Shown here: one piece after another, positions 29,114-56,113 of the stretch
How the letters are laid out: the number at the start of each line of letters is the position of its first letter
How positions within the stretch are numbered: position 1 is the first letter of the stretch
Origin: an uncultured Candidatus Saccharibacteria bacterium
Lineage (GTDB): Bacteria; Patescibacteriota; UBA1384; 2-12-FULL-50-11
NCBI GenBank assembly: GCA_964358205.1
Contig: CAYHNZ010000001.1
Coordinates: 3,168-67,167 of the forward strand
Reading direction: 5' to 3'
DNA length: 64,000 bases
The notes under the pieces: generated by a model
Database searches by the model: none
The model's input: only the letters and a program-made list of their open reading frames with translations
What the model was told of the DNA's origin: nothing
Program-made: the position numbers and the translations under genes

Positions 29114-29612
29114 GATGTACAAAGTATTTTATGGCTTGGCAGTTTTGGTGGCGTTGGCGCTGATAATTATCGGCGTCGTGGCTAGTCGCAAAAACGATAG
29201 CCCAACCAACGGCGACTCCTTTAACACCGACCAACTCCAAGACGCTGAACAGAAAACCCCTTAGAGCCTGACAATAATCTAACCGCAACATCCAAACTAA
29301 TAACAATACTACTTGCCGGTTAAAACAGCCCCATTTCGTCTGCAAACCACTCATCCTTCCTCACCGTATCTCAATATGGTTCGTCGGTCTTCGTGGTTTT
29401 CGCTTGAAATGGGACAGTTTTTCCTCGGCATTAGATTTTGTCAGGCTCTTAAGGGCAAGGCTAAAGTTATAAGGCTAAAGTCTGAAGTAAGTGACAACTT
29501 TCAAGTATTAAGTAATTAGAACTTATTACCTATTACTTACTTTGAACGGACCGCCATCCGCCAGCGGCGGTGAAAAGCGAGGGATAGCGACAAATAACTA
29601 ATTGATCAGGTA

Positions 29613-30023
29613 TCAGGCGATTTGCTCAATATGTAGAGCGTGAGCTTGTTTTAGCAATTTCTTGTCATAGCTGAATAATTTAGAAATACCTGCGTCCAAC
29701 ATTAGCTGTAGTATCAATGCATCATTCACGCCGGTGTTTAATTTTTGGCCCAGGTCAGCATAGCGTAAAGCGAAATCAATACTCGGTGAAGGCTCAACTA
29801 GGATTAGGCCTGGTAGTTTAGCGATTCTTTCCACGGCCCTAACGATATCAGCATCGGGAGAGAGCTTTGATAAGACAAATAATACTTCCTCGATAATATG
29901 GTGCGAGGTTACAAGTTGCTCGTCATCATCTACCAGTTTTTGAAGGAGTCCAATGGTTTGGGAATGGTTATCAGATGTTTCATCTAAGTAATAGACCAGC
30001 ACATTAGCGTCTAGCAAAACCAT
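29613..30023 (-). CDS. vapC: PIN-domain ribonuclease toxin (VapC-like)
   Basis: 'MVLLDANVLVYYLDE...' with conserved acidic residues of PIN fold; 136 aa. Confidence 0.7.
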   Translation of the reverse strand: MVLLDANVLVYYLDETSDNHSQTIGLLQKLVDDDEQLVTSHHIIEEVLFVLSKLSPDADIVRAVERIAKLPGLILVEPSPSIDFALRYADLGQKLNTGVNDALILQLMLDAGISKLFSYDKKLLKQAHALHIEQIA

Positions 30024-30198
30024 TGGACTTCTTTCATAACCCCTATTTGACAGCTTAACTGGGAGCGATTTTGAGCGAAAGGCACGATCTTGTGAGAAGG
30101 CATAGACACATCTACGCTGACGAGCAAATCGTGACTTGTAGCCAAAGTCGCCAGTTGAGTTTGATCAATGGGGTTATGAAAGAAGTCCATTATTTGAG

Positions 30199-30438
30199 CT
30201 ACTCGTATTTACTCTCGGCAAGCTCGTTGAGATATTCCGGGGTTAATGGCCGACCGGCTTTTTCCTGCAGACGAAAGCCTCCGCCAATAACCTTGCGACT
30301 TTTAGCTGTAATAGAAAGCGGTTCAAGACGAGCAATGGGTCTGCCCGCCTTGCCAATGACAATCCGCTCTCCATTAGCCGCCCTCTCAAGTAGCTTGGAA
30401 AAGTTTGTTTTCGCTTCGTGTACATTGATTACATTCAT
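30199..30438 (-). CDS. Phd/YefM-family type II antitoxin
   Basis: 'MNVINVHEAKTNFSKLLERAANGERIVIGKAGRPIARLEPL' canonical Phd/YefM N-terminus; 79 aa. Confidence 0.75.
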   Translation of the reverse strand: MNVINVHEAKTNFSKLLERAANGERIVIGKAGRPIARLEPLSITAKSRKVIGGGFRLQEKAGRPLTPEYLNELAESKYE

Positions 30439-30539
30439 AACACTAGTCTAGTCGACTAAGTGGACTCTGTCAACAGCGACATTCAGTAATTTCGTAATTC
30501 TGTAATTCCCCGCTGTGACTGATTTAGGTTATTCTGGTA

Positions 30540-33254
30540 TTGATGGTATCAACTCACCCAACCCATACTCGTCCAGTGTCGAAAGATTTTTGGTCGCAAT
30601 CGAAGACCCAAGTCTTAACCGACTTGCGCAGTAACGAGCATCACGGCTTAACCAACCAGGAGGCTCGCCGTCGGCTACTAACTCACGGCTACAATGAGCT
30701 TAATAAACCCGATCGACCGTCGCCGGTCAAACTGTTAATTCGCCAGTTTATTAGCCCGTTCGTCTATATATTACTAGCCGCCTCGGCAATCTCGTTCTAC
30801 GAACGGCAGTGGACCGAGCTAGGGGTGATTCTGGTTGTTATCGTTGCCAACGGCATTATCGGTTTTTTGGAAGAATACCGAGCCGAACAAACCATCGGCA
30901 AATTACGGAGTATCCTTGCCCCCCAAGCCCGGGTTATTCGTGAATCGGTTGAGCAAAAAATTCCCGCCCGTTATTTAGTACCGGGCGACATTATTATCGT
31001 TGAAGCTGGTGATCGTGTTCCGGCCGATGCCCGGATACTTGAAGCTAGAAGTATGCGAGTTAATCAAGCGCCGTTAACGGGCGAATCGTTACCAGCTCAC
31101 AAACGCGACACGATTATTGCGAGTGCCTCGGCTCTGCTCGATCGGGACAATATGCTTTATCTGGCCACCCTAGTTGTCTCCGGTCGAGGGGTGGCGGTGG
31201 TTTGTGCCACCGGTATGGGAACGGAATTGGGCAGTATCGCCCGGGAAGTTTCGGGTGTTAAAGAAGCGCCGAGCGATCTGCAAAAAAAGTTACAGGTCTT
31301 GGGTTCTGCCCTACTACTGGCCTCGGTTGTTCTGTCGGTAATTTCTTTTGTCATCGGCTTTGCCAACGGCGTGCCGATTCTTCAGATGTTTCGGACGACG
31401 CTCGCCCTGTTGGTTTCGGTCGTACCAGAAGGTCTGCCGATTGCCCTAACGGTAACGCTCTCGATCGGTTTAACTAGATTGTTTCATCGCCACAGTTTGA
31501 TTCGCCAGCTCTCGGCCACCGAAACGCTGGGGAGTATCACAGTGCTGTGTGTCGACAAAACCGGCACCCTGACCGAAGGGGCAATGATGGTTGAAAAAAT
31601 AGTTCTGCCCTCGGGCGAGTATTCCGTTTCGGGTCGAGGTTTCGATTTGTCGGGCTCGTTCTTTGAAGCTGAAAACAAGATCACGGCGACCAAAGTGCCC
31701 CAGCTAGATTTGATTTTGAAACTAGCTAGCCTGGCGACGATGTCATCGATTTCCAAGGACGACTTGCTGAAAAATCGGGCCAAACAATTAACCGATCCGA
31801 CCGAAACAGCCTTGGCAGTGGTGGCGGCCAAAGCCGGATACTATGCCTTTGAGGAGGAGCGAGATTACCCAGAATTGCTGGAAATCCCTTTCGATCAAGA
31901 GCTTCGCTACTCGGCTTCAATTCATCAATTCGATCATCACCACCGAATCATCGTTAAGGGCTCGCCAGAGCGATTAATCGCTCTTTGCGATTATGTGGCC
32001 GGGACCAAAAAACGGCGATTGCTAAAAACCGACCGAGACAATTTATTGCGACAAGTCGACGAACTGGCAGGGGCGGGCTACCGGCTAGTGGCGCTCTCTT
32101 ACGCTGATTACCCGGCCTCGGCCAGCATTAATGCCAGCCTGGCGAAAAATCTCACCTGGGTTGGCCTGCTAGCGCTGGCTGACCCGATTCGTCCCGAAGC
32201 CAAAAAAGCTATTAGCAACGCCCTAGATGCGGGCATCCGAACAGTGATGATTACTGGCGACCACCTCTTAACCGCCGCTCACATCGCCCGTAAACTTGGT
32301 CTGGATCTTCAGGGCGAGATCGTTCACGCCCAAGACCTGGCTGGACACGATTTGCCTAAGGTGGCAGTCATTGCGCGGGCGACCCCTAAAGACAAACTGC
32401 TGATTGTTGAACGACTTCAACGGCACGGAGATCGGGTGGCAATGACCGGCGACGGGGTAAACGACGCTCCGGCCTTGAAGAAATCTGACATCGGCGTTTC
32501 TATGGGTCGAGGCGGTAGCGACATCGCCGTTGAGGCATCGCATATGGTTCTGCTCGATGATAACATCACCGGCATCGTCTTCGCCGTCGCTGAAGGGCGG
32601 CTAATTTGGGAGAACATCAAAAAAGTGGTTTACTACCTCGTTTCCACTAGTCTGGGGGAAATTCTAACGATTATTGGCGCCGTCTTACTCGGCTGGCCTC
32701 TACCTGTCCTGGCAGTGCAAATATTGTGGATGAATTTGGTCACGGACGGGGTGACTTCGATGGCGCTCGCCGTAGAACCGGCCGAGGAGGATCTGATGAA
32801 GCGACCGCCCAGAAACCTGAAAGAGCCGATTCTGTCGAGCTCAACTTTTGGTCGAATGATGCTGGTATCGGTGGTGATGGCGTTGGGGGCGTTGTTTATT
32901 TTTGAGCGCTTCGCCAGTGACCTGGTTTACGCTCGGTCAGCGACACTGACGACGCTGGTCTTTTTTCAGCTCTTTAATTTATTTAACAGTCGTTCGGCGA
33001 CGGCGTCCGTTTTCAAGATTAACTGGTTTGATAATCGATGGCTTCTATTAATGTTTGGTGTCGCGACAACCTTGCAATTGGGCGTCCTTTACTGGCCGAG
33101 CGTCAGCGGTGTTTTGGGCTTGACGGCCCTGGATTTACCGACGCTCGCTCTCTGTCTGGTGGTCTCTCTCTCGATTGTCTTAGTGGACGAGTTGCGTAAA
33201 TTAGGGCGTATAATGATGCTGTCTTGGGCTAAAACCCAAGCGGTGTTTAACTGA
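30540..33254 (+). CDS. Cation-transporting P-type ATPase (type IIA Ca2+-ATPase-like)
   Basis: 'CVDKTGTLTEG' phosphorylation site, 'MTGDGVNDAPALKKSDIGVSMG' hinge, 10 TM layout, 904 aa. Confidence 0.85.
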   Translation: MMVSTHPTHTRPVSKDFWSQSKTQVLTDLRSNEHHGLTNQEARRRLLTHGYNELNKPDRPSPVKLLIRQFISPFVYILLAASAISFYERQWTELGVILVVIVANGIIGFLEEYRAEQTIGKLRSILAPQARVIRESVEQKIPARYLVPGDIIIVEAGDRVPADARILEARSMRVNQAPLTGESLPAHKRDTIIASASALLDRDNMLYLATLVVSGRGVAVVCATGMGTELGSIAREVSGVKEAPSDLQKKLQVLGSALLLASVVLSVISFVIGFANGVPILQMFRTTLALLVSVVPEGLPIALTVTLSIGLTRLFHRHSLIRQLSATETLGSITVLCVDKTGTLTEGAMMVEKIVLPSGEYSVSGRGFDLSGSFFEAENKITATKVPQLDLILKLASLATMSSISKDDLLKNRAKQLTDPTETALAVVAAKAGYYAFEEERDYPELLEIPFDQELRYSASIHQFDHHHRIIVKGSPERLIALCDYVAGTKKRRLLKTDRDNLLRQVDELAGAGYRLVALSYADYPASASINASLAKNLTWVGLLALADPIRPEAKKAISNALDAGIRTVMITGDHLLTAAHIARKLGLDLQGEIVHAQDLAGHDLPKVAVIARATPKDKLLIVERLQRHGDRVAMTGDGVNDAPALKKSDIGVSMGRGGSDIAVEASHMVLLDDNITGIVFAVAEGRLIWENIKKVVYYLVSTSLGEILTIIGAVLLGWPLPVLAVQILWMNLVTDGVTSMALAVEPAEEDLMKRPPRNLKEPILSSSTFGRMMLVSVVMALGALFIFERFASDLVYARSATLTTLVFFQLFNLFNSRSATASVFKINWFDNRWLLLMFGVATTLQLGVLYWPSVSGVLGLTALDLPTLALCLVVSLSIVLVDELRKLGRIMMLSWAKTQAVFN

Positions 33255-33628
33255 TGAAACAGAAAAAGATTTTATTGGTCGAGGACAACGAGGAGCTCCG
33301 CCGACTCTACAAAGAGGCTTTTAGTCATCACGACTTCGCCGTTTTTGAATCTGGCGACGGCCAGTCAGCCATCGATTCCGCCTTACTTCATGCCCCGGAT
33401 ATTATCTTGCTGGATTTGATGTTACCTCGCCAGGGGGGACTGGGGGCGCTCAAAATTTTTCGCACCCTACCGGAGTGCAAGCACATCCCGATTATTATTC
33501 TGACGGCTCTGCCTAACCCCGAGTACAAAGAACAGGCCGAAGGTCGGGTTCAGGGCTACTACCTAAAAACCGAGATCACCCCGAAGGAACTGATTGAAAA
33601 AATCGAAACGTTGCTAGCACCCAGCTAA
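33254..33628 (+). CDS. Stand-alone response-regulator receiver domain (CheY-like); start overlaps ATPase stop (TGATG)
   Basis: 'KILLVEDNEELRRLY...DIILLDLMLP...IPIIILTA' receiver signature; 124 aa. Confidence 0.8.
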   Translation: MKQKKILLVEDNEELRRLYKEAFSHHDFAVFESGDGQSAIDSALLHAPDIILLDLMLPRQGGLGALKIFRTLPECKHIPIIILTALPNPEYKEQAEGRVQGYYLKTEITPKELIEKIETLLAPS

Positions 33629-33657
33629 ACTGACGAATCCTTGCTAGGGAAAGGGTA

Positions 33658-33720
33658 TTGACAAGCCGTGGTAGGTGTATATAATACACTTATATAGTGT
33701 AGAAAATACACTATTGTAGC
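33658..33720 (+). promoter_or_regulatory. Sigma-70-like promoter TTGACA-16nt-TATAAT (33658-33685) followed by operator-like palindromes (TACACT...AGTGTA) upstream of the SPFH operon
   Basis: Read directly: 'TTGACAagccgtggtaggtgtaTATAATacacttatatagtgtagaaaatacactattgtag'. Confidence 0.5.
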
Positions 33721-33766
33721 TTCACATTCATGTGTGCAAAGCGGAAAGAGCCTTCAGGAGACTAGA

Positions 33767-34642: not shown

Positions 34643-34644
34643 CG

Positions 34645-35556: not shown

Positions 35557-35619
35557 TAGAAAACCTTAGGGGGGCGAATAGCCCCCCTGTTCTTATAAAT
35601 GATATATTTCAATTAAACG

Positions 35620-36309: not shown

Positions 36310-36496
36310 CTCCTGACGTCGCCACAATCAGATCCAGGGTTACTACTTAAAAGCGGGATTAAGCCCGAGTAGCTGATTGGGGAGCACTAATCATCACCAG
36401 CTGCGTCAAGTAGTCGACTTAGGCCGGTTTTTTCGCTAAAATATCAGAGCTAAAAGGTTTTTTGGTCCATCGTCTACTTGGAGCAACAGAGCGACA

Positions 36497-36596
36497 AGCG
36501 AGCCCGAGCTTACGAGGGCGACAATGGCCTAGGACGCCTGGTTCTCACTTCGACCCGCCGGCTGGCGGGGAGAAGCGAGCTGATACTTACAAACTT
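36497..36596 (+). other. tRNA-Glu-like fragments upstream of the complete tRNA-Glu: D-arm piece 'TCGTCTA' + 47-nt insert + 'ATGGCCTAGGACGCCTGGTTCTCA' (D loop to anticodon CUC), then a second insert carrying the CCGCCGGCTGGCGG hairpin
   Basis: Aligns with inner tRNA-Glu 'TCGTCTAGTGGCCTAGGACACCTGGTTCTCAT'. Confidence 0.5.
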
Positions 36597-36673
36597 GGCG
36601 TGTTCGTCTAGTGGCCTAGGACACCTGGTTCTCATCCAGGAGATCACGGGTTCGACTCCCGTACACGCCGCCA
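36597..36673 (+). tRNA. tRNA-Glu (anticodon CUC), complete cloverleaf with encoded CCA; flanked by a perfect 9-bp inverted repeat GCTGATACT (36579-36587) / AGTATCAGC (36678-36686)
   Basis: GGCGTGT-TC-GTCT-AGTGGCCTA-GGAC-A-CCTGG-TTCTCAT-CCAGG-AGATC-ACGGG-TTCGACT-CCCGT-ACACGCC-G-CCA; matches bacterial tRNA-Glu D-loop signature. Confidence 0.85.
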
Positions 36674-36686
36674 AATCAGTATCAGC

Positions 36687-36775
36687 GACATCCAGGAGAT
36701 CACGGGCCTTCGCCCGCCGAAGCGGGGCTACTGCCCGCGAAGGCGGGGGTTCGACTCCTTCGTCACTGACTCGGT
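36687..36775 (+). other. tRNA-Glu-like 3' fragment ('ATCCAGGAGATCACGGG' anticodon-stem 3' strand + variable loop + T-stem 5' strand) continuing the upstream outer copy, followed by GC-rich hairpins and 'GGGGGTTCGACTCC' T-loop-like sequence
   Basis: Read directly; resumes the inner-tRNA sequence from anticodon-loop position 38 onward, then diverges. Confidence 0.45.
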
Positions 36776-36832
36776 TGATTTTTGTCATCAAGAGATATAC
36801 ACTAGCGCAGTATTCGTACCTAAGGAGTTGTT

Positions 36833-37636: not shown

Positions 37637-37725
37637 CCGTCACTAATGTGGCGGTCGTTTTTTAAAGGTAGGTATACTAAAGCTATGCTCATGTCAGTAT
37701 TGGTTTTAACACCTAATATTTCGAA

Positions 37726-40192: not shown

Positions 40193-43051
40193 ATGCCAAA
40201 GCCAGATTTTTCCGCAGAAACAAAATCGCTTTTTGAAGTAGAAGAAAAAGTCCTGAAGTTTTGGGACGAACAGAAGATTTTTCAGAAATCCCTCGATAAG
40301 AACCCTAAAGAGAATATCTTTTCTTTCTACGACGGCCCGCCGTTTATTACCGGCATTCCTCATTACGCCACGCTTTTGCCGTCTATCGCCAAAGACATTA
40401 TTCCCCGCTATCAAACGATGCGGGGTAAATACGTTCGGCGGATTTGGGGCTGGGATACCCACGGCTTGCCGGCCGAAAACCAAGTCGAAAAACAGCTCGG
40501 CCTGAAGGTAAAAAAAGACATCGAAACGCTGGGAGTCGATAAGTTTATCGCTGCTTGTCGCAACTATGTTGGCGAAGTCTCGGATGCTTGGAAGTGGTAC
40601 ATCGACCACATCGGTCGCTGGGTCGATATGGAGGGCGCCTATCGAACGGACAGCCTATCTTATATGGAGTCGGTGCTTTCTGTGTTCAAACAGCTTTACG
40701 ACAAAAACCTGATTTACCGTGGTCGCCGGACATCGCTCTATTGTCCGCGTTGTGCCACGCCGCTCTCGAAGTTTGAAGTGACGATGGACGACGATTCGTA
40801 TCGTGATGTTGAGGACCCGGCAGTTACAATTGCTTTCCCCCTTTTGGCCGACGACGTTTCACTCTTGGCCTGGACTACCACACCCTGGACTCTGCCTGCA
40901 AACCTTAGCTTGGCAGTCGATGAATTGGCCGAGTACGTCAAAGTAACCGACGGCAAGAAGCAGTACATTCTGGCGCATGAGGCCTTGTCACGTTACTCGG
41001 ATTGCGACTTTGAGATTCTTGAAACATTTAAAGGTAAGAAATTGATTGGTCAGAAATATGAACCGCTTTACAGTTTCCTACCAACCAATCCGGCCACTGA
41101 CTACCAAGTCTATCCAGCCGACTTCGTCTCGATGGATGAAGGCACGGGAATTGTCCATATTGCTCCAGGCTTTGGCGAGGACGATACCAAACTCGGGGAG
41201 AAGGTCGGTTTGTCACTGCACGAAACGATTGACGAAGCCGGGCATTTTATTCCCGAGGTCAAACCCTGGGCCGGTCAGTATTATAAAAAATCCAACTCCC
41301 AAATTTCCGCCGATTTACAAAAACGGGAGCTGTTATTTAAGGAAGAAACGATCACTCACTCCTACCCCCACTGCTACCGTTGCAGTACGCCGCTCATCTA
41401 CAAAGCCCAGGTTTCTTGGTACTTATCGATTGAACCGTTGCGAGCGCAGTTGCTCTCCAGCAATAAAAAAATAAACTGGATGCCCCAACATTTTGGCGAC
41501 AAGCGATTTGCCCACAATATTACTAATGCACCCGATTGGTCGATCAGTCGCACCCGTTATTGGGGGACGCTACTACCGGTTTGGGAGACCGAAGATGGTG
41601 AGATCTTTGTGCCCGAATCAATTACCGAACTGGAAAAATTAAGCGGTCAGAAAATAGACGATTTACATCGCCCCAAGATTGACGAGGTTGTCTTGACCCT
41701 ACCCAGCGGCAAAAAAGCTCGCCGAGTCAAAGACGTGCTCGATGTTTGGTTTGAATCCGGCTCGATGCCCTACGCCCAGGACCATTATCCGTTTGAGCAT
41801 CAAAAAGAATTTGACCAGCACTTCCCGACAGATTTCATTATTGAATACACCGGCCAGCTTCGGGGCTGGTTTTATTATTTACATGTTTTGGCCACTGCCC
41901 TCAAAAAAAGCATCGCTTTTAAAAATGTGGCTGTAACGGGAGTGCTGATGGGCAACGACGGTCGAAAAATGAGCAAATCCTACGGCAACTACCCCGATCC
42001 CCGTGGGACGATTGAGAAGTACGGCGCCGAGTCGCTCCGGCTCTATTTCATGGGATCGAAGATAATGGCTGGCGAGGATCTGGTGATTGCCGAGGAGGAT
42101 ATTCGCGAACAATCCCGCTTGCTTAATGTTTGGCACAACGCCCTAAAGTACTACTCAACCTACGCCGGAATCCACCCTTCTCCCACCCGGCGGGTGGGAG
42201 AAGGGGGAAACAAAGATAATAAGGGCGAAAAAAATGTGCTCGATCGGTGGGTTGAAGCCCGGCTCGAAGAGGCGATTAGGGACTACAGTCAGGGGTTGGA
42301 TAACTTCGATTTTCAATGCTCGACCAAAGCCATCCGGCCTTTTATTGAAGATTTATCGACGTGGTATATTCGACGGTCACGGGATCGTTTTGTCACGGGC
42401 GACCAAGCGGCGCTGGCGACTTTAGGGGCAGTTTTACAACGAGCGGCCATCGCTTTTGCCCCAACTCTGCCTTTTACCGGCGAGTATTTTTATCAGGTCC
42501 TCGGTGGTACGAAAGAGTCAGTTCACCTGGAAGATTATCCGACTGTTGACGAGGTAGTACTGAAAACTGAAAAAGAAACTATTGCCGTCATGGCAACTGT
42601 GCGAACCGTGGCTTCAGTAGCCCATATGCAACGCGCCGAGGCCAAAATGCCCCTGCGCCAACCGCTATCAAACTTGACCGTTGGCGGATCGCCAGATCTA
42701 GCCAATCGGGAAGATCTGATTGAGATTTTACGGGACGAGATGAATGTCGAGAGCGTTGAATTTGGTCAAGAGACCAGGATAGATACCGAGCTGACGCCAG
42801 AGCTGAAAGCCGAAGGCCGCACCCGAGAGTTAGCTCGCAAGCTTCAGGAGGCTCGCAAAAAATCTGGCTTAAAAGTGGGCGAATTGGCCAGTTTCCACTA
42901 CTTTACTCGTGACGACGAATTACGAGAGCTGATTGAAAAACATTCGACCGAATTAGCGAAAACTGCTTCACTGCGCTCCATCGAGCCGATCGCCGATTCT
43001 CCTGGCTTAACTAAACTCGACGGCGAAGAGCTGGCCTACAAATTTGAGTAG
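40193..43051 (+). CDS. ileS: Isoleucyl-tRNA synthetase, eukaryote-like type 2 (KMSKS intact; HIGH region reads 'PHYAT')
   Basis: 'DGPPFITGIPHYATLLPSIAKDIIPRY...WGWDTHGLPAE' matches type-2 IleRS N-terminus; 'KMSKSYGNYPDP'; 952 aa. Confidence 0.8.
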   Translation: MPKPDFSAETKSLFEVEEKVLKFWDEQKIFQKSLDKNPKENIFSFYDGPPFITGIPHYATLLPSIAKDIIPRYQTMRGKYVRRIWGWDTHGLPAENQVEKQLGLKVKKDIETLGVDKFIAACRNYVGEVSDAWKWYIDHIGRWVDMEGAYRTDSLSYMESVLSVFKQLYDKNLIYRGRRTSLYCPRCATPLSKFEVTMDDDSYRDVEDPAVTIAFPLLADDVSLLAWTTTPWTLPANLSLAVDELAEYVKVTDGKKQYILAHEALSRYSDCDFEILETFKGKKLIGQKYEPLYSFLPTNPATDYQVYPADFVSMDEGTGIVHIAPGFGEDDTKLGEKVGLSLHETIDEAGHFIPEVKPWAGQYYKKSNSQISADLQKRELLFKEETITHSYPHCYRCSTPLIYKAQVSWYLSIEPLRAQLLSSNKKINWMPQHFGDKRFAHNITNAPDWSISRTRYWGTLLPVWETEDGEIFVPESITELEKLSGQKIDDLHRPKIDEVVLTLPSGKKARRVKDVLDVWFESGSMPYAQDHYPFEHQKEFDQHFPTDFIIEYTGQLRGWFYYLHVLATALKKSIAFKNVAVTGVLMGNDGRKMSKSYGNYPDPRGTIEKYGAESLRLYFMGSKIMAGEDLVIAEEDIREQSRLLNVWHNALKYYSTYAGIHPSPTRRVGEGGNKDNKGEKNVLDRWVEARLEEAIRDYSQGLDNFDFQCSTKAIRPFIEDLSTWYIRRSRDRFVTGDQAALATLGAVLQRAAIAFAPTLPFTGEYFYQVLGGTKESVHLEDYPTVDEVVLKTEKETIAVMATVRTVASVAHMQRAEAKMPLRQPLSNLTVGGSPDLANREDLIEILRDEMNVESVEFGQETRIDTELTPELKAEGRTRELARKLQEARKKSGLKVGELASFHYFTRDDELRELIEKHSTELAKTASLRSIEPIADSPGLTKLDGEELAYKFE

Positions 43052-46625: not shown

Positions 46626-46692
46626 GAACAGCCCAACTAAAAAACTCCCCGCCTGGTAGGGCGGGGAGCGGGTGGCCGGCGTTCAGCAGAAC

Positions 46693-47764: not shown

Positions 47765-47767
47765 TGT

Positions 47768-48619: not shown

Positions 48620-48801
48620 AAGACCTCGTTCGGTGAAGTTTCGATTTCCCTTGATGTCAAGGAACCTCTGAATCCCCGATATTCTGCGCCGAATCAGCCC
48701 CTATGTCAATAGCCTTGTCAGCATTTTGCAATTATTGCTTTTAATACCCCGACGGCTTGTCGGAGATATTAATTTACTGCAAATGTTGTTAGCATAATTA
48801 T

Positions 48802-49644: not shown

Positions 49645-49681
49645 GTCCAGCCAAAATTAACCTAGAAAATATTGGCTGGCG

Positions 49682-51397: not shown

Positions 51398-51544
51398 TTC
51401 GGAGAAAACGAGCTAATATGATGAGAGGCATGTCTCAATTGTAAATGGCTTCATCCCTGATGGCAAAAAAGAACCATGGGGTTTTTTAACTTAAATAAAT
51501 ATCCTCGCGGCCAGCCGCCGAGGTTTCTTGCAAAAAATCAAATT

Positions 51545-51580
51545 AAAAAAAGCGGCTCAATTACAGGGTAATCGAGCCGC
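51545..51580 (-). terminator. Rho-independent terminator (GCGGCTC/GAGCCGC stem, 15-nt loop, T7 on minus strand) downstream of 51588 gene
   Basis: 'AAAAAAAGCGGCTCAATTACAGGGTAATCGAGCCGC' on + strand. Confidence 0.65.
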
Positions 51581-51587
51581 GAGACAT

Positions 51588-52299
51588 TCACTTGCCAATC
51601 TTATTCATGTTAGGTTGAGCTGTTAGCCAAGTCTCCAGGGCCTTGGACAGCGACAGTTGACCAGAGCGCTCCATGTGGGGAGTTTTGGGTCCGCCAGAGA
51701 AGACGCTGATGGGCACAATCAAAAGAGTTACCGCCGTTTTCCAGCCAGGTTCTTTCTCTGTGCTGTCGGACCTAACCTTGTCGGCTTTGAGGGAAAACTC
51801 GGATTTAGCGACATCGACGATCCAGAGGTCGACCGTACTGTGGGCTTTCGTCTTTGGCCCCAAGAAGATCCACTGGGGAACGGATGTTCCAATGGCAACG
51901 AGAGACAGCCACATAATCAACATCCAGCTTCTTGCCTAAGGCTACCAGTTGGGTGGCATCGGGCATGATGAAAGCCTCGGTGTTGAAAACAGCGCCTCCT
52001 AACATCTGCCAGCTAGCGTTTACCTTGGCCTGGTCGACGGTGACGATGCCGAGCTTCTCGAAGGCACCGAAGAGCGCCTTGTGATAGGTCTCGACGGCCT
52101 TGTTGTCAGTGCCAACTTCTCTTTCTTGTCCTTTGTCTGTTTCTTGAAACATTAAGGGCAGAACGGCGACGGTCTTGATCTTAGCGGCTTCTCCCTTAGC
52201 TGGAGTGCCGATTTTCTGGGCCGATGCCGAAGTTGCGAGCAACAGGGTGCCGAGCAACGCCACGGCCAGTGTGAAACAAGTTTTTCTGATCATAGTCAT
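51588..52299 (-). pseudogene. Frameshifted lipoprotein-like gene (paralog of 45268-45864): N-terminal 164-aa ORF and C-terminal 111-aa ORF in different frames
   Basis: ORFs 51805-52299 and 51588-51923 overlap; both halves align to successive parts of the 45268-45864 protein ('KTVAVLPL'~'KVAIVPV'; 'WIVDVAKSEF'~'VWMVDAKKKE'; 'SGGP...LSKALETWL'~'SGGG...ANGLRDLLKDWL'). Confidence 0.5.
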
Positions 52300-52373
52300 G
52301 TGAGATACGCTCCTTAAAAAGGATCAGGATTATCTTAATGCTCTTTGCAATATTAAGCAAGGGTTCTCTTGGT

Positions 52374-52440
52374 ACTTTTCTGGCAATCTGGGGGTAAGAT
52401 GTTTCCGCCGTCCGCCAGCCAGCGGAGGAGGACGGCAGAG
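52374..52440. repeat. Leader repeat copy 1 (ACTTTTCTGG.AATCTGGGGGTAAGATGTTTCCGCCG... with GC hairpin)
   Basis: Near-identical to copies at 52914 and 55961. Confidence 0.8.
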
Positions 52441-52456
52441 TCTAACCTTACTTTCG

Positions 52457-52771
52457 CTAAGCTAGTGGCAAACCGGTGCGTTTAATTTCCGTAGCGAAGA
52501 AATTTAGACGGTCGTCAAAATCCGTGCTTCGAATCGGATGAGGCTCGATCATATCGGTCTGGTCATTGCGAAGATTCATTAACCGAACTCTTTCGGCTTG
52601 ACGGTCATCGCTGAAATCCGCCGAGACGACACAAAGATCGATGTCACTGTCTATGTGTTCAGTGCCCTTGGTTCGTGAGCCGAAAATATAAGCTCGTTCC
52701 GGGTTGATGCCCGAGTTTCGAACCAGTTGCAGATAGAGTTCGGCTGTTTTTAAAGTCTCTGATTTAGTCAT
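52457..52771 (-). CDS. Minimal nucleotidyltransferase (MNT) domain protein (type VII TA antitoxin-like / Pol-beta superfamily)
   Basis: 'AYIFGSRTKGTEHIDSDIDLCVV' GS..(11)..DxD motif; 104 aa. Confidence 0.65.
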   Translation of the reverse strand: MTKSETLKTAELYLQLVRNSGINPERAYIFGSRTKGTEHIDSDIDLCVVSADFSDDRQAERVRLMNLRNDQTDMIEPHPIRSTDFDDRLNFFATEIKRTGLPLA

Positions 52772-52913
52772 TAATCTTTTGGGCGAAGGAAAGGTAGAAT
52801 TCCTCCACCACCTTCAGCCATTTTTCAGCGTACTGCTCGGTTGCTTTCAGGAAGACATCCCATTCTGTCATTTTCTAATTTGAGTTTAACAAAAGGGGTC
52901 GCCCAAAGCCAGT

Positions 52914-52984
52914 CATTTTCTGGTAATCTGGGGGTAAGATGTTTCCGCCGGCTGGCGGAGTGATTTTTGAAGGCGAAAGTTGAG
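52914..52984. repeat. Leader repeat copy 2 (contains CCGCCGGCTGGCGG hairpin and 'GAAGGCGAAAG')
   Basis: ~95% identical to copy 3 over ~70 nt. Confidence 0.8.
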
Positions 52985-53049
52985 AGGGTTGCGAATCTTC
53001 AGGGAAAAAGAGAACCGCCCCCTAACGCCTAACGGTCCTTAAGTATTGT

Positions 53050-53619
53050 CTATTTCTTCTTGCCCGTGACAAAATATAAACCACGCTGGATACCGTCATA
53101 TTTACTAGAAATTGCAGTGAAGACTTCTTCTGTAGAAAGGACTCGGAAAAAAGGCAACTCGGGGTTGCCAACAGTGAATGTGTCTTTTTCGCTGTTGTAG
53201 GCTATTAATAGTGAAAAATGTCCGTAACCTTTTTCGGAACCGTAGATACCCGTGTGATAGCGAAGGATGACGTCATAGTTCGATTCTTGTCCAAAAAGGA
53301 ATCTACTAATTAGATTCTCCCTATCCTTAGGAATAATTTGCCCCGAAATTGATAGAGGGATGCTATGGGATCGAAAAAAGTTATTTATTGAGTATTTTTT
53401 CTTCTCAATCTGGGTGCCATAACCCTCCCTGGGCTCGGAGGCAAGAAACTTAATCTGGGGGTGCTTGAACCTAGAGCGTCCTTTTTCGGGCAAACGTAAA
53501 CCCAGTTCAGCACCAATCGTCTCTTGGTCGAGAATGTCCAGCTTCCGTCGGTAGAGTATCCACTGAAGGGTGGCTGGGACGCAACAATACGGCAGTTGAT
53601 AAAATGGGCGGTAGTCCAT
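53050..53619 (-). CDS. Putative papain-like cysteine peptidase (C39-like fold)
   Basis: Candidate catalytic Cys in 'YCCVPATLQWIL' and His in 'GYGHFSLLIAY'; 189 aa. Confidence 0.35.
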   Translation of the reverse strand: MDYRPFYQLPYCCVPATLQWILYRRKLDILDQETIGAELGLRLPEKGRSRFKHPQIKFLASEPREGYGTQIEKKKYSINNFFRSHSIPLSISGQIIPKDRENLISRFLFGQESNYDVILRYHTGIYGSEKGYGHFSLLIAYNSEKDTFTVGNPELPFFRVLSTEEVFTAISSKYDGIQRGLYFVTGKKK

Positions 53620-53786
53620 ACATACGTATTATACGAAAAAGAGGGACGCTACCACGGAGGAGCGTCCCTTGTCGATGCTGGCCGAGCTTAGCCCATGTCG
53701 CCTTCGGAGCCACCTTCGCAGCTTGTCCGGCTGTTTAGTGCGCTTTGCCCCGATCGCCAATACGGGTGTCCCAAGAGGGATGCCCG

Positions 53787-54608
53787 CTATTTTATAAGAC
53801 GGCCAATTACGCAGGCCTCTTGCCCGATTTCGGTATTTGGTCGAGGGAAAATTATGTACTCGCCCTCTCTGGCTACATATTTAATCTCGCCATCAGTGGC
53901 AAAGATCTTGCCCGTTTCGAGTTTATCGAAGTTTTGGTACTCCTTGTCGAACGCGAATCGAGAGCTAGTTTTTTTAATAAAACGGTCCACGTTAATGTGT
54001 AGCCGACTCCTAAGTGTATCTTCGGGAAGTGAAGCGATGATACCGAAATAGCCCAAAAACTGCAGGATGGTTTTTTCGGCCAAGCCGATATATTTTTCTG
54101 GGTAGAAATTGGACCCACATTCGGCGCAGATGGCTATTTTATTCTGCGCGTGCATATATCCGTCGGTCCCGCCTGGTTCTGATACAGACCAACCAGAGGA
54201 AATGATCTCAAAATTAAATTTGCAGGCTAAATCAAACGACTCTTTCTCGCAGATAAGGAATGGTCGATCTTCCGGACCGTTGTAACCATGTAGATCTAGT
54301 AATGCGTCGCAGCCGTCGAGTAGTTTCATCAGCTCTCGAGCCAAGCCGTCCTCATAGACGGCTCCAGTATTTCCATTAATGAAACAACGATTGAGATTTT
54401 TTTCGGTAAAACGAACGTTCTGCTCGACAGCTTTAGGGTTAGCAATGACGAAATGAACAGTACCCGCATCAATTCGCAGGGCTCCTATTAGTTTCGTGAC
54501 AGCCAGTACGCCTGCTGGCTCATTCCCATGGATACCAGCAAAAACGGCAACGGTTCGGCCAGGTAGTTTTCCACGAACCGTCGTAATCTCAGGATTCATA
54601 GTACGCAT
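53787..54608 (-). CDS. Succinylglutamate desuccinylase/aspartoacylase (AstE/AspA, M14-like) family zinc deacylase
   Basis: 'TVAVFAGIHGNEPAGVLAV...DLHG' zinc-ligand motifs of AstE/AspA family; 273 aa. Confidence 0.6.
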   Translation of the reverse strand: MRTMNPEITTVRGKLPGRTVAVFAGIHGNEPAGVLAVTKLIGALRIDAGTVHFVIANPKAVEQNVRFTEKNLNRCFINGNTGAVYEDGLARELMKLLDGCDALLDLHGYNGPEDRPFLICEKESFDLACKFNFEIISSGWSVSEPGGTDGYMHAQNKIAICAECGSNFYPEKYIGLAEKTILQFLGYFGIIASLPEDTLRSRLHINVDRFIKKTSSRFAFDKEYQNFDKLETGKIFATDGEIKYVAREGEYIIFPRPNTEIGQEACVIGRLIK

Positions 54609-54725
54609 TCTAGCCCCTCGAGTAATTCTTTTCCAGCCCAGTACTAACGAGCTATCAAGCCCTGCTTGTGATTCCGCGCAATCTTATGCCCAAGCTCGTG
54701 GTATTCAGGTAATCTGAGAATCATA

Positions 54726-55199
54726 ATGTTACCAGCCCTCTACATAATGTGCGGCCTGCCCTACTCCGGAAAAACGGTACTCGCCAAGAAATTAAGTAAG
54801 AAATACGGCTGGAAACTGGTGGAAATCGATGGAATCAAGGCACGACATGGTTTTGCTGGCATATGGCAAGATATGAAGATGAAAGATTGGGATGAGATTT
54901 TTAGTGAATCATTCGAAGTCGTCCGAAACGAACTAGGAGCAGGTAGAAGTATTATTTATGACTCGGCTAATCTAACCAGGGAAAGCCGGGACAGACTGAA
55001 GAATATAGCGAAGGAGTCTAGTGCTGAGGCGAGACTGATTTTTCTTGATATTCCAACGGAAGAAGCCATCTCTCGATGGCGGGAGAATGAAAAAGCAAAG
55101 TTTCGACATCACCTACCGGAGTGGGCTTTGAAGGCCGCAATTAAAACATATCAGCCACCGACTACTGATGAGATGCCTGTTTCTCTTGACCTGCCTTAG
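54726..55199 (+). CDS. P-loop kinase (AAA_33/zeta-toxin-like small kinase)
   Basis: Walker A 'GLPYSGKTVLAKKL'; 157 aa. Confidence 0.55.
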   Translation: MLPALYIMCGLPYSGKTVLAKKLSKKYGWKLVEIDGIKARHGFAGIWQDMKMKDWDEIFSESFEVVRNELGAGRSIIYDSANLTRESRDRLKNIAKESSAEARLIFLDIPTEEAISRWRENEKAKFRHHLPEWALKAAIKTYQPPTTDEMPVSLDLP

Positions 55200-55218
55200 T
55201 CCTGGACAAAATCCTTTT

Positions 55219-55899
55219 TTACACCAAGGCAAGCCCTTTTTCTATGAAGACATTGATATCAGAGTAATGCGGGGTCAGCTTTTTCTGTAGATCGACTAGG
55301 TTCGGATAGTTGTGGTCGGTGTACGCGCCGGAGCGATTCCATGGCCAAAAAGTTTTCATGATGGGATCGAGGCCGGTGATGGCGAAAGCATAGACTTCCG
55401 CTAGTTTCCAAATTATTTGATCTGAAACTCCAGGATTCTTAGTGCGCATCCGCGAAAAGAAATGCGAAATGATTAGTTCGTGAGCAGTGATGCGTCGCTG
55501 TTCTCGAGCGTCTTTGTCCCAAATCCGCACCACTTTGTTACCGCCCCAGTTACTGATCCCGGGGTGGAAAAGACTGACGACACATTCGTAATGTTTGTGG
55601 GCGAGCGGAAACCTGGTTAGTTCAGCCAAGCGCTCGAAAAACTTCTGGTCAATCTCGTCCCAACCGCGTTGATACGTCCCAATAACTTCGTCGAGCTTAT
55701 TCCCGATTTCGAGATATCGCTTATTGGCGACTGTCTTGGCGAGTAATTTGTCACCATTAGCGATTTTCTTAGAGTCTTCTGCTGAAATTTTCATAGTTTC
55801 GGCGTACTCCAAAACACCTTGCTCGCTCCGCCCTTTAAGCATCACAACAATCATCTCCGTATCGTATTTTTGGTCTTTGATAAACCGCAGTAGCGACAT
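55219..55899 (-). CDS. Hypothetical protein (226 aa)
   Basis: ORF with AAGGAG RBS upstream of ATG 55899. Confidence 0.4.
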   Translation of the reverse strand: MSLLRFIKDQKYDTEMIVVMLKGRSEQGVLEYAETMKISAEDSKKIANGDKLLAKTVANKRYLEIGNKLDEVIGTYQRGWDEIDQKFFERLAELTRFPLAHKHYECVVSLFHPGISNWGGNKVVRIWDKDAREQRRITAHELIISHFFSRMRTKNPGVSDQIIWKLAEVYAFAITGLDPIMKTFWPWNRSGAYTDHNYPNLVDLQKKLTPHYSDINVFIEKGLALV

Positions 55900-55960
55900 A
55901 TAGCAATCTTACTCCTTAGGGCTTCACGGATAAACCCATTTCTTTTTAAGCCAATTCGGT

Positions 55961-56113
55961 ACTTTTCTGGTAATCTGGGGGTAAGATGTTTCCGCCGGCT
56001 GGCGGAGTCATTATTGAAGGCGAAAGTTGACTTGTCCTCCGAAGCCTCGGCGAAGGTGGGGAAAGCTGTTAACCGTTCCGCCGGCTGGCGGAGACAAGAT
56101 GGCGGGAACGGGT
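55961..56113. repeat. Leader repeat copy 3 (55961-56030) plus adjacent partial copy/hairpin CCGTTCCGCCGGCTGGCGGAG...GGCGGGAACGG (56073-56111)
   Basis: Read directly. Confidence 0.8.

What the first reader, a model, noticed from the sequence alone, without database searches (positions are those of the whole stretch)
29551..56113. Genome-specific GC-hairpin repeat family (CCGCC-N3-4-GGCGG + GAGAAGCGAG / GAAGGCGAAAG / GCGACAAT) present in tRNA inserts, an intergenic site and three gene leaders
Related short elements occur at seven places. Three are the tRNA inserts: 23352-23396 (Gln locus), 36497-36543 and 36547-36596 (Glu locus). One is intergenic at 29551-29595, between the cohesin-like gene and the PIN toxin gene. 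The other three are the ~70-nt leader repeats at 52374, 52914 and 55961, plus a partial copy at 56073. Each of the three leader copies lies 40-75 nt upstream of the start codon of a different minus-strand gene: the frameshifted lipoprotein paralog, a 35-codon mini-ORF preceding the MNT gene, and the 226-aa hypothetical. They could be REP-like elements, a miniature mobile element, or a shared cis-regulatory or structured leader RNA defining a small regulon.
Basis: seen in the sequence. Interest (0 to 1): 0.7.

Follow-up and report, generated by a model that had tools for sequence, protein, structure and literature searches.

The report
Small GC palindromes, promoter modules, nested tRNAs
The seven sites are not one repeat family: they combine a copied promoter and short-gene module, a tiny GC-rich palindrome that gets inserted into other sequences, and a roughly 50-base two-hairpin insert that has broken two old tRNA genes, each of which now holds an intact replacement tRNA inside it.

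Summary
The repeats are real, but they are not one family, not genome-specific, and not leaders of the minus-strand genes. The window comes from a groundwater Patescibacteria (CPR) MAG.

1. **Class A (52376, 52916, 55963).** These are plus-strand copies of a promoter-like box plus the start of a short ORF (M-L-L-SFLKAKVEK...). Related CPR assemblies carry the same module 159-251 nt upstream of unrelated co-directional genes. GAAGGCGAAAG is coding sequence.

2. **GC palindrome.** TCCGCC-GGCT-GGCGGA is present or absent at homologous positions. It usually breaks the short ORF. It recurs at 56077 and inside a tRNA insert at 36554.

3. **E elements.** Four two-hairpin inserts of about 50 nt (CTTN..N'AAG-CGAG-hairpin-CGACAA) lie without target duplication at tRNA loop positions 16/17 (twice) and 37/38, and at one intergenic site.
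   - The broken tRNA-Glu, and a truncated tRNA-Gln fragment upstream, are the ancestral syntenic genes; relatives have them uninterrupted.
   - A second tRNA-Gln is split by an E insert but otherwise intact.
   - An intact tRNA-Gln and an intact tRNA-Glu sit inside hairpins of two E elements.

My best reading is miniature palindromic mobile DNA (REP/RPE/SDR-like) plus tRNA gene replacement, with moderate confidence. No transposase was found in the window, and the rest of the genome could not be searched.

The parts
52376..52443 (+). Class A copy w5: M1 box (TTTTCTGGCAATCTGGGGGTAAG) plus ATG, followed by a longer nested GC hairpin (CCGCCG[TCCGCCAGCCAGCGGA]GGAGGACGGCAG). It is an orphan: no plus-strand gene follows, and the MNT gene (nucleotidyltransferase domain) ends 81 nt downstream on the other strand.
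52916..52983 (+). Class A copy w6: M1, ATG, the 16-nt palindrome TCCGCCGGCTGGCGGA, then the remnant of the short ORF (..FLKAKVE..). It is an orphan. Its right flank is homologous to the copy upstream of a DUF2268 gene in the Uhrbacteria MAG.
55963..56133 (+). Class A copy w7: M1, ATG, the palindrome, then a degenerate short ORF (SLLKAKVD...) that carries further insertions. It lies 208 nt upstream of the conserved 139-aa gene (56171-56590), as in locus L014.
56077..56092 (.). A second copy of the palindrome TCCGCCGGCTGGCGGA inside w7. It is absent at the homologous position (..AATCG..GACAAGATG) in L004, L014 and L030.
36554..36569 (.). The same palindrome with a compensated closing pair (CCCGCC GGCT GGCGGG). 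It forms hairpin A of insert E3.
23167..23217 (+). Truncated 5' part (positions 1 to about 52) of the ancestral, syntenic tRNA-Gln, with its TGATAAAAT promoter just upstream. It aligns, promoter included, to the intact tRNA-Gln of relative L017.
23246..23259 (+). 5' piece (acceptor strand plus 5' strand of the D stem) of the outer tRNA-Gln2 (CUG).
23260..23280 (+). E1, left part: CTAC-GAA followed by the 5' arm of the stem that encloses the inner tRNA.
23281..23352 (+). Intact inner tRNA-Gln (CUG), nested in hairpin A of E1.
23353..23398 (+). E1, right part: 3' arm of the stem, TGA-GAAG-CGAG, hairpin GTCCGC-CAACAA-GCGGAC, then CGACAAT.
23399..23453 (+). 3' piece of the outer tRNA-Gln2. Joined to 23246-23259 it gives a tRNA-Gln (CUG) that ARAGORN recognises.
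29540..29595 (+). E4, an intergenic copy of the E element: CTTT-GAACGG, hairpin ACCGCC..GGCGGT, GA-AAAG-CGAG, GGATAG, CGACAAAT. It lies 17 nt beyond the stop codon of the PIN gene.
36464..36476 (+). Outer (ancestral) tRNA-Glu, piece A: GGTCCA-TC-GTCT-A. It corresponds to GGTCCCATCGTCTA of the uninterrupted tRNA-Glu in relative L013, which has the same promoter.
36477..36525 (+). E2, an empty E element in the D loop (position 16/17) of the outer tRNA-Glu.
36526..36547 (+). Outer tRNA-Glu, piece B (D loop to anticodon-loop position 37).
36548..36596 (+). E3, left part, inserted at position 37/38: CTTC-GA, GC palindrome, GA-GAAG-CGAG, then the 5' arm CTGATACT.
36597..36673 (+). Intact inner tRNA-Glu (CUC) with encoded CCA, nested in hairpin B of E3. 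Its body is about 98% identical to the outer pieces, but its acceptor stem differs (GGCGTGT against GGTCC(C)A).
36674..36690 (+). E3, right part: 3' arm AGTATCAG followed by CGACA.
36691..36706 (+). Outer tRNA-Glu, piece C (position 38 to the 5' strand of the T stem).
36707..36746 (+). A third insert of a different type: a small three-helix GC-rich structure at position 53/54 of the outer tRNA-Glu.
36747..36758 (+). Outer tRNA-Glu, piece D (GGGTTCGACTCC). The 3' strand of the acceptor stem is missing or degenerate downstream, so the outer gene is a pseudogene.

Best explanation
Three different things are superimposed at these sites.

**(A) A portable plus-strand module.** It consists of an extended -10-like box (TGGTAATCT), then 9 nt, then ATG, then a short ORF beginning M-(L/I)-L-S-F-L-K-A-K-V-E-K. 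In this CPR lineage it sits 159-251 nt upstream of unrelated genes. The window holds three decayed copies.

**(B) A 16-nt GC palindrome, TCCGCC-GGCT-GGCGGA.** It is an insertion. Some homologous copies of the module have it right after codon 2 and others do not. It normally shifts the reading frame. With the T-rich tail that follows, it looks like an intrinsic terminator. The same palindrome has also landed a second time in copy w7 and in a tRNA insert.

**(C) A two-hairpin element of about 50 nt (E).** Its layout is CTTN-GA-[hairpin A]-GA-N'AAG-CGAG-[hairpin B]-CGACAA(T). It has inserted without target duplication after YTYA at loop positions of two tRNA genes and at one intergenic site.

I infer that B and C are miniature non-autonomous palindromic DNA elements that insert into exposed or hairpin-loop DNA, which would explain the nesting. 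I also infer that the hit tRNA genes were disabled.

The working tRNA-Gln and tRNA-Glu are complete copies sitting in a hairpin of E1 and of E3. They are presumably transcribed from the ancestral promoter and released by RNase P and RNase Z.

**Shown:** the anatomy, the orientation, the presence/absence at homologous sites, and that the broken tRNA-Glu and the truncated tRNA-Gln fragment are the ancestral genes.
**Inferred:** mobility, the insertion mechanism, and expression.
For: **Class A**
- The orientation and the co-directional downstream genes hold for w7 and for six copies in relatives. The extra copies were found.
- Third-codon-position (synonymous) variation over SFLKAKVEK shows that the tail is coding.
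- The MFPPAGG reading frame is broken by a 1-nt indel in L014, and one L004 copy has no ATG.

**Palindrome**
- Hairpin-less alleles read ATGTTGTTGTCGTTTTTG. Hairpin alleles read ATGTT-TCCGCCGGCTGGCGGA-GTCGTTTTTG.
- The second site, 56077, is empty in L004, L014 and L030.
- There are four exact 14-mers in 64 kb, and the relaxed hairpin pattern occurs 6 times against 0.4 expected.
- The match between E3 and the 56078 copy is 19 of 21 bases, and 0 of 300 shuffles reach that score.
- The hairpin plus its tail scores as a plus-strand terminator.

**E elements**
- The ordered motif occurs 3 times against 0.24 expected.
- The flanking tRNA pieces rejoin into continuous tRNA sequence, so there is no target-site duplication.
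- The spliced outer Gln2 is called a tRNA by ARAGORN.
- The base at N/N' in helix P1 co-varies: CTTC/GAAG, CTTG/CAAG, CTTT/AAAG (read directly; the pairs appear in the folds).

**Ancestry**
- L013 and L050 have an uninterrupted tRNA-Glu at the same place, and L013 also shows the same promoter.
- L017 has an intact tRNA-Gln that aligns to the truncated fragment and its promoter.
- No Rfam family matches any of these sequences.
Against: - No transposase, RAYT or integrase gene is in the window or in the flanks I held.
- Copy numbers are small. Only 64 kb of this genome, plus about 2.6 kb from an overlapping contig, could be searched, so genome-wide dispersal is unproven.
- No additional E element turned up in about 340 kb of window and fetched loci.
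- The palindrome copies in w6, w7, L004, L014 and L030 descend from one old insertion that was then duplicated with the module. That leaves only about three or four independent insertion events.
- A palindrome can also arise or be lost through template switching or deletion, without any transposition.
- GAGAAGC is also the 5' arm of the native terminator behind tRNA-Glu in relatives. Part of the E motif may therefore be carried-over tRNA flank rather than a transposon end.
- The outer tRNA-Gln2 is still perfect, which would also fit an RNA-level intron.
Confidence: 0.5

Rival explanations
1. The class A module is a shared cis-regulatory leader (promoter plus leader peptide or attenuator), and the GC hairpin with its T-rich tail is a regulated promoter-proximal terminator. 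On this reading the repeats define a small regulon of plus-strand genes, and the hairpin is a functional part of the module rather than a parasite.
For: - The module lies at a constant 159-251 nt upstream of co-directional genes in seven copies.
- The first 9-12 codons of the short ORF are conserved with synonymous changes.
- The hairpin plus tail scores as a terminator.
- A related promoter and start precedes the precursor-like peptide of the ThiF cluster.
Against: - The downstream genes are functionally unrelated: a 139-aa unknown protein, DUF2268, an acyltransferase, a MurA-like enzyme, a secreted protein and a 500-aa protein of unknown family.
- The hairpin is absent from three otherwise intact modules and shifts the reading frame in most others.
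- Two window copies have no downstream gene.
- Folding energies are no better than those of shuffled sequence: z = -0.1 to -1.3.
- This reading does not explain the same palindrome inside a tRNA insert.
Confidence: 0.2
2. The inserts in the tRNA genes are RNA-level intervening sequences: a bacterial, non-group-I kind of tRNA intron, or an intervening sequence of the type excised from rRNA. The composite gene would be transcribed, the inner tRNA released by RNase P and RNase Z, and the outer exons spliced or kept together by base pairing.
For: - All insertion points are tRNA loop positions, including the canonical 37/38.
- The exons of Gln2 rejoin into a perfect cloverleaf.
- E has a conserved helix with a co-varying base pair and tandem G.A motifs, as a structured RNA would.
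- Patescibacteria are known to be rich in introns (PMC13011429).
Against: - The outer tRNA-Glu lacks a base in its 5' acceptor strand and has no usable 3' acceptor strand, so it cannot mature.
- One E copy is intergenic, with no tRNA around it.
- I saw no consistent bulge-helix-bulge (BHB) pairing; this was checked by eye only.
- There is no group I or group II intron match.
- The inner tRNA has the same anticodon as the outer one, so the outer one is dispensable.
Confidence: 0.12
3. The repeats are recombination scars. The class A copies would be att-like junctions that flank serially integrated gene cassettes next to the conserved 139-aa gene. The tRNA fragments would be attL/attR remnants of integrative elements whose bodies were later deleted.
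For: - The three class A copies are direct repeats that bracket variable cargo: MNT (a nucleotidyltransferase-domain gene) in one segment, and four genes in the other (AstE/AspA, an AAA kinase and two hypothetical genes). In relatives, AbiE toxin-antitoxin genes lie next to the module.
- The right flank of w6 is homologous to the flank of a different cargo gene in L004.
- L017 has an intact tRNA-Gln followed 110 nt later by a duplicated 3' tRNA fragment, the classical signature of integration.
- Synteny ends at the tRNA-Gln locus.
Against: - There is no integrase in the window or its flanks.
- In L030, L032 and L040 the module sits between ordinary housekeeping genes.
- Precise insertions of 47-137 nt into the D loop and anticodon loop, with the tRNA pieces still contiguous, are not what crossover at a tRNA 3' end produces.
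- It does not fit integron attC features: no integrase, and mixed gene orientation.
Confidence: 0.15

Closest known systems
REP / REPIN elements and IS200/IS605-derived palindrome-associated elements (PATEs)
   Same: Both are short GC-rich palindromes with conserved flanking bases, lack terminal inverted repeats and lack target-site duplication. E inserts right after a short pyrimidine-rich target (TCTA, TCTA, CTCA, CTTA) and has hairpins near both ends.
   Different: The palindrome here is only 16 nt. It is not arranged in inverted doublets. Some copies lie inside a short ORF or inside tRNA sequence rather than in extragenic DNA. No RAYT or TnpA gene was found in the sequence I held, and the genome-wide copy number is unknown. 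(REPIN background: PMC3116915.)
Rickettsia palindromic elements, cyanobacterial small dispersed repeats and mitochondrial GC clusters (recalled from my own knowledge: Ogata 2000; Elhai 2008)
   Same: These are selfish palindromic inserts in a reduced genome. They land inside protein-coding and RNA genes and nest within one another. In L014 the palindrome is in frame and adds PPAGG to the short ORF.
   Different: The palindrome here is much shorter than Rickettsia palindromic elements. No sequence relationship to any of these families could be tested. In most copies the insertion breaks the reading frame instead of being tolerated.
Archaeal multi-intron, split and disrupted tRNA genes (for example the Caldiarchaeum tRNA-Thr locus, PMC3293823)
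   Same: Several short inserts sit at D-loop, 37/38 and T-arm positions of one tRNA gene, tRNA fragments lie next to the gene, and a mobile element is the suspected cause.
   Different: The organism here is a bacterium. No bulge-helix-bulge motif or splicing endonuclease is evident. One outer gene is clearly dead. A complete replacement tRNA sits inside the insert, which to my knowledge has not been described.
Group I introns in Patescibacteria tRNA genes (PMC13011429)
   Same: Same phylum, and the tRNA genes are likewise interrupted and missed or mis-called by standard tools.
   Different: The inserts here are 47-56 nt without their tRNA cargo. They have no group I core and no Rfam match, and they include D-loop sites.
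Mobile or propagated promoters (recalled from my own knowledge: Matus-Garcia et al. 2012)
   Same: Near-identical upstream modules stand in front of non-homologous genes, both within a genome and between related genomes.
   Different: The module here also carries the start of a conserved short ORF. Promoter activity has not been tested.

Membership tests
REP/REPIN (RAYT-associated) | An imperfect palindrome of 20-40 nt, repeated many times, mostly in extragenic DNA. | tested here: inconclusive
   The palindrome is 16 nt. The window has four exact copies of the 14-nt core and three variants. Several copies lie inside a short ORF or a tRNA remnant. The genome-wide count could not be made, because the single genome-contig scan found only a relative.
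REP/REPIN (RAYT-associated) | A cognate RAYT (Y1/HUH transposase) gene, usually flanked by REPs. | tested here: not met
   No Y1_Tnp-like or other transposase domain was found among the window ORFs scanned or in the precomputed annotations. The adjacent 139-aa protein has no known family, and its predicted fold has no significant match to a solved structure. This covers only 64 kb of the genome.
IS200/IS605-derived miniature elements (PATE) | No target-site duplication, no terminal inverted repeats, and insertion 3' of a fixed short target. | tested here: met
   tRNA pieces B+C and A+B rejoin into continuous tRNA sequence. The ends CTTNGA and CGACAA are not inverted repeats of each other. The targets are TCTA, TCTA, CTCA and CTTA. 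With only four copies this is suggestive, not proof.
IS200/IS605-derived miniature elements (PATE) | Ends shared with an autonomous element that encodes TnpA or TnpB. | not testable with these tools
There is none in the window.
Archaeal-type BHB tRNA introns | The exons form a functional tRNA once the insert is removed. | tested here: inconclusive
   Met for Gln2. Not met for the outer tRNA-Glu, whose 3' acceptor strand is missing.
Archaeal-type BHB tRNA introns | A bulge-helix-bulge (BHB) motif at both splice sites, and an EndA-type endonuclease. | tested here: not met
   By eye, and in the minimum-free-energy folds, there is no consistent arrangement of 3-nt bulge, 4-bp helix and 3-nt bulge across E1-E3. 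The organism is bacterial, with a sigma-70 gene. EndA could not be searched genome-wide.
Group I intron | A conserved P3-P9 core, normally more than 200 nt. | tested here: not met
   No Intron_gpI match, even at E <= 10. The inserts are 47-56 nt.
Integron attC / cassette array | An IntI integrase next to the array, and attC sites downstream of promoterless ORFs that share one orientation. | tested here: not met
   There is no integrase. The cargo genes have mixed orientation. In relatives the module lies between housekeeping genes.
Intrinsic terminator | A GC-rich hairpin followed by a T run. | tested here: met
   52943-52960 and 55990-56007 are called plus-strand terminator-like sites. Function was not tested. 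The copy in E3 has no T run.
Known Rfam RNA families (ribozymes, riboswitches, leaders) | A covariance-model match. | tested here: not met
   Only the tRNAs reach threshold. Nothing relevant appears at E <= 10.

The most novel reading that the evidence does not exclude
E is a previously undescribed bacterial tRNA-targeting element that inserts into tRNA loop positions and can carry a complete tRNA of the same identity in one of its hairpins. It would destroy the resident gene while supplying the replacement, so the host cannot afford to lose it. Alternatively, it is a true non-group-I tRNA intron in bacteria. Either reading would make tRNA-within-tRNA genes a real feature of Patescibacteria.
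Probability: 0.12. Interest if true: 0.85.

Novelty: new variant of a known kind. Interest (0 to 1): 0.5.

Why it matters
**Selfish DNA in tiny genomes.** Patescibacteria genomes are very small and are usually thought to carry few repeats. Very short palindromic inserts that break short ORFs and pile up in tRNA genes would show that selfish DNA still shapes them.

**tRNA annotation.** The two tRNA loci matter for annotation. The working tRNA-Gln and tRNA-Glu sit inside the wreck of the ancestral genes. Standard tools see only the inner genes and miss this history. Similar nesting could also hide real tRNAs elsewhere.

**tRNA gene turnover.** If the inserts turn out to be spliced, or to deliver their own tRNA, that would be a new mode of tRNA gene turnover in bacteria.

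**Gene calling.** The promoter plus short-ORF module is a useful marker for transcription units and leaderless starts in this uncultured lineage.

Tried and rejected
- **Known RNA families.** Rfam at gathering threshold over the whole window, and at E <= 10 over all five regions, gave nothing except the tRNAs.
- **The mini-ORF MFPPAGGVIFEGES as a real peptide.** Rejected. L014 has a 1-nt indel, one L004 copy has no ATG, and the conserved reading frame is the other one, SFLKAKVEK.
- **The hairpin as a DNA-uptake-type, highly over-represented word.** No 7- to 10-mer enrichment of that kind was found.
- **The 139-aa neighbouring gene as the transposase or recombinase.** It has no Pfam or PDB sequence hit. 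The model is confident, but the fold has no significant match beyond a weak RelE/HigB-like resemblance.
- **An inversion with breakpoints at E4 and the tRNA-Gln locus.** Rejected, because the L017 genes upstream of its tRNA have no homologue in the window.
- **CGACAAT as a transposon end seen elsewhere.** In a Saccharimonadales relative, CTCGACAAT is simply a -35 box 16-17 nt before TACAAT. This is a caution against reading too much into short motifs.
- **Homology between the E motifs and the class A tail.** Only the hairpin aligns significantly.
- **More E copies.** None was found in about 340 kb of window and fetched loci. No relatives of insert 3, insert 4 or the Gln spacer were found.
- **Collection scans.** Viral contigs: 0 hits for both patterns. 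First metagenome pattern: 0 hits.
- **The palindrome at 42175-42205 in the IleRS gene as an in-gene insertion.** It lies in a variable loop of similar length in solved IleRS structures, so there is no evidence of insertion.
- **TCCGCCAGCTGGCGGA in L017.** It lies within a called gene (L017 11794-12816, minus strand). This shows that such palindromes can also occur inside ordinary genes.

Full report
**Source and setting**

The window is bacterial: it has a sigma-70 gene. It matches contigs assembled from the 0.1 and 0.2 um filter fractions of Hainich groundwater well H43 at 99.9-100% identity.

Its only close genomic relative in the species-representative collection is a Candidatus Uhrbacteria MAG (L004). 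The 139-aa ORF at 56171-56590 belongs to a family that the sources' names tie to Patescibacteria. GC content is 49.6%.

The two tRNA loci are identical in independent assemblies. Glu is covered by L001-L003 and Gln by L051. They are therefore not assembly artefacts.

**Checking the observation**

- The three "leader" repeats are real. 52916-52983 and 55963-56030 are 97% identical over 68 nt. 52376-52443 shares only the first 34 nt and then has a different, longer hairpin.
- CCGCCGGCTGGCGG occurs four times exactly, at 36555, 52945, 55992 and 56078. The relaxed hairpin pattern occurs 6 times against 0.4 expected.
- The single short motifs are not significant.
- The ordered pair A[AG]GCGAG..CGACAA is significant. 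It occurs three times, all on the plus strand, against 0.24 expected; 1 of 300 dinucleotide shuffles reaches three. A fourth copy has a whole tRNA between the two halves.

**Class A: the "leader" repeats read on the plus strand**

*More copies in relatives.* A scan of representative genomes with 19 nt of the repeat hit the Uhrbacteria MAG. Protein-anchored look-ups and a metagenome scan added copies in L014, L030 (three copies), L032 and L040.

*What the alignment shows.*
- Box M1 is TTTTCTGGTAATCTGGGGGTAAG. It contains an extended -10-like TGGTAATCT, comparable to TGATAAAAT in front of the ancestral tRNA genes and of the 139-aa gene. That comparison is my inference.
- An ATG follows 9 nt later.
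- The rest is a short ORF. In copies without the hairpin it reads M-(L/I)-L-S-F-L-K-A-K-V-E-K... and is 19-44 aa long.
- Across ten copies the nine codons SFLKAKVEK vary mainly at third positions: TCG/TCA, TTG/CTG, AAG/AAA, GCG/GCA, GTT/GTG, GAG/GAA.

*Gene context.*
- In w7 and in six copies in relatives, a co-directional gene starts 159-251 nt downstream.
- Five of these copies lie between two co-directional genes, with no real divergent gene.
- The downstream genes are unrelated to one another: the 139-aa protein, DUF2268, an acyltransferase, a MurA-like enzyme, a secreted protein and a 500-aa protein of unknown family.
- In the window only copy w7 has such a gene. Copies w5 and w6 face the 3' ends of convergent genes and are orphans.
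- The 45-77 nt spacing to the minus-strand start codons is real, but it is not conserved in relatives.

**The GC palindrome is an insertion**

*First site.* Copies in L030b, L032 and L040 read ATG-TTG-TTG-TCG-TTT-TTG. Copies w6, w7, L004 (two copies), L014 and L030a read ATGTT-TCCGCC(G/A)GC(T/A)GGCGGA-GTCGTTTTTG. That is a net gain of 13 nt, or 12 nt in L014.
- Only in L014 does the ATG stay in frame, adding PPAGG.
- In the other M1-bearing copies the ATG is out of frame.
- The apparent peptide MFPPAGGV... is an artefact of the hairpin sequence.

*Second site.* An identical copy lies at 56077-56092 inside w7. The homologous position is empty in L004, L014 and L030.

*Third site.* A copy with a compensated closing pair (CCCGCC..GGCGGG) forms one hairpin of tRNA insert E3. 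It matches the 56078 copy at 19 of 21 bases, and 0 of 300 shuffles reach that score.

*Other points.*
- Variants occur in w5 as a hairpin nested within a hairpin, and in E1 and E4.
- With the T-rich tail, the class A hairpins are called plus-strand terminator-like sites.
- The predicted folds of whole modules are no more stable than shuffled sequence.

**The tRNA loci**

*Glu locus.* Relatives L013 and L050 have an uninterrupted tRNA-Glu (CUC) directly upstream of the orthologous sigma-factor gene. In L013 the same TAAA(A/C)T promoter is also visible. Both are followed by a terminator whose 5' arm is GAGAAGCC or GAGAAACC.

In the window this ancestral gene is split into four pieces (36464-76, 36526-47, 36691-706 and 36747-58) by three inserts:
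- E2, in the D loop at position 16/17.
- E3, at position 37/38.
- A different three-helix GC-rich insert at position 53/54.

Further sequence follows, the 3' acceptor strand is missing, and one base of the 5' acceptor strand is lost. The outer gene is therefore a pseudogene.

The only intact tRNA-Glu, at 36597-36673 (62 bits), sits inside hairpin B of E3. An 8-bp stem (CTGATACT/AGTATCAG) brackets it.

*Gln locus.* The truncated fragment 23167-23217 and its promoter align to the intact tRNA-Gln of the syntenic relative L017, so this fragment is the ancestral gene.

Downstream lies a second tRNA-Gln (CUG), called Gln2, which is split at D-loop position 16/17 by a 139-nt insert, E1 (23260-23398). 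Joining 23246-23259 to 23399-23453 gives a tRNA that ARAGORN accepts, and the fold keeps all of its arms.

The intact tRNA-Gln at 23281-23352 (59 bits) sits in hairpin A of E1, inside a stem of about 12 bp.

L017 also shows a duplicated 3' tRNA-Gln fragment whose T loop is interrupted by an insert carrying GTGAAGCGAG.

**The E element**

The four copies are E1 (23260-80 plus 23353-98), E2 (36477-36525), E3 (36548-96 plus 36674-90) and E4 (29540-29595, intergenic).

- They share the order CTTN - GA - [hairpin A] - GA - N'AAG - CGAG - [hairpin B] - CGACA(AT).
- The fourth base of the left end pairs with the base before AAG, and it co-varies: CTTC/GAAG, CTTG/CAAG, CTTT/AAAG. E1 has CTAC/GAAG with one mismatch. 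I read this directly. The helix also appears in the minimum-free-energy folds of E2 and E3.
- Each copy follows a pyrimidine-rich tetramer ending in A: TCTA, TCTA, CTCA, CTTA.
- The flanking tRNA pieces are contiguous, so there is no target duplication. The two ends are not inverted repeats of each other.
- No Rfam family matches.
- No further copy was found in about 340 kb of window and fetched loci.

**Interpretation**

The anatomy fits small non-autonomous palindromic DNA that inserts into exposed or loop DNA and nests within itself. The known families it works like are REP/PATE elements, Rickettsia palindromic elements and cyanobacterial small dispersed repeats.

The weak points are these:
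- No transposase was found in the 64 kb.
- There are only three or four independent palindrome insertions and four E copies.
- Part of the E motif (GAGAAGC) may be inherited tRNA trailer sequence.

An RNA-level intron remains possible for Gln2. It is contradicted for Glu and for the intergenic copy. A recombination-scar reading explains the variable cargo between class A copies and the L017 fragment, but it does not explain the precise loop insertions.

Nesting the only intact tRNA of each kind inside the insert that broke an older copy, twice and with matching identity, is the most unusual feature. I read it as tRNA gene replacement that reuses the ancestral promoter. How the tRNA got there is unknown.

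**Verdict**

The finding is real but mis-grouped and placed on the wrong strand. It is a new variant of known kinds of miniature palindromic repeats, combined with an unusual tRNA-within-tRNA-remnant architecture that deserves follow-up with the full genome and with RNA data.

Noticed in passing
window 60563-60637 (+), with 60634-61797, 61804-62820 and 59268-59337: A 24-aa ORF (MSSFLKEILFPDFKPGVKHRWFKR) overlaps the start of a ThiF-like gene, which is followed by a gene with a faint nitroreductase-family (PF00881) hit. This looks like a RiPP-type cluster. Its promoter and start resemble the class A M1 box and the SFLK start. The last 14 codons of the peptide plus the first ThiF codons are duplicated at the end of the 504-aa ORF (57798-59312).
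   Followed up: partly
window 56171-56590 (+): This 139-aa protein belongs to a family with 69 cluster hits, and every one that a source names is Patescibacteria. It has no Pfam or PDB sequence match. The AlphaFold model is confident (pLDDT 92.6), but the fold has no significant match to solved structures beyond a weak RelE/HigB-like resemblance. It looks leaderless, with TGATAAAAT about 12 nt before the ATG.
   Followed up: partly
L017 9860-9945: In the syntenic relative, an intact tRNA-Gln is followed 110 nt later by a duplicated 3' tRNA-Gln fragment. The T loop of that fragment is split by a roughly 46-nt insert containing GTGAAGCGAG. The intact tRNA looks like a hybrid: its 5' part resembles the window's ancestral fragment, and its T arm resembles Gln2.
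   Followed up: partly
window 36597-36673 compared with 36526-36547, 36691-36706 and 36747-36758: The inner tRNA-Glu has almost the same body as the broken outer gene (1 mismatch in about 50 nt) but a completely different acceptor stem, and it encodes CCA. Its origin is unexplained: a local copy with a new acceptor stem, or gene conversion.
   Followed up: no
window 42175-42205: A 31-nt perfect palindrome (14-bp arms) lies inside the IleRS gene, in a surface loop that is variable in solved IleRS structures. There is no evidence that it is an insertion.
   Followed up: partly
window 52764-52871 and 52457-52771 (-): A 35-codon ORF overlaps the start of the MNT nucleotidyltransferase gene. It may be the remnant of a partner gene.
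   Followed up: no
L010 1652, 9968, 11800 and 13812: In a Saccharimonadales genome, CTCGACAAT recurs 16-17 nt before TACAAT-like boxes upstream of four genes. It is a lineage-typical -35 element (TCGACA) with very short leaders.
   Followed up: partly
window 35979: Two independent ENA assemblies (L001, L002) both end exactly at this position, inside the NrtR-like gene. This suggests a strain-variable or repeated boundary.
   Followed up: no
window 5454-6950 (+): A class I Glu/Gln-type tRNA synthetase gene lies in the same window as the rearranged tRNA-Gln and tRNA-Glu loci. This may be coincidence.
   Followed up: no
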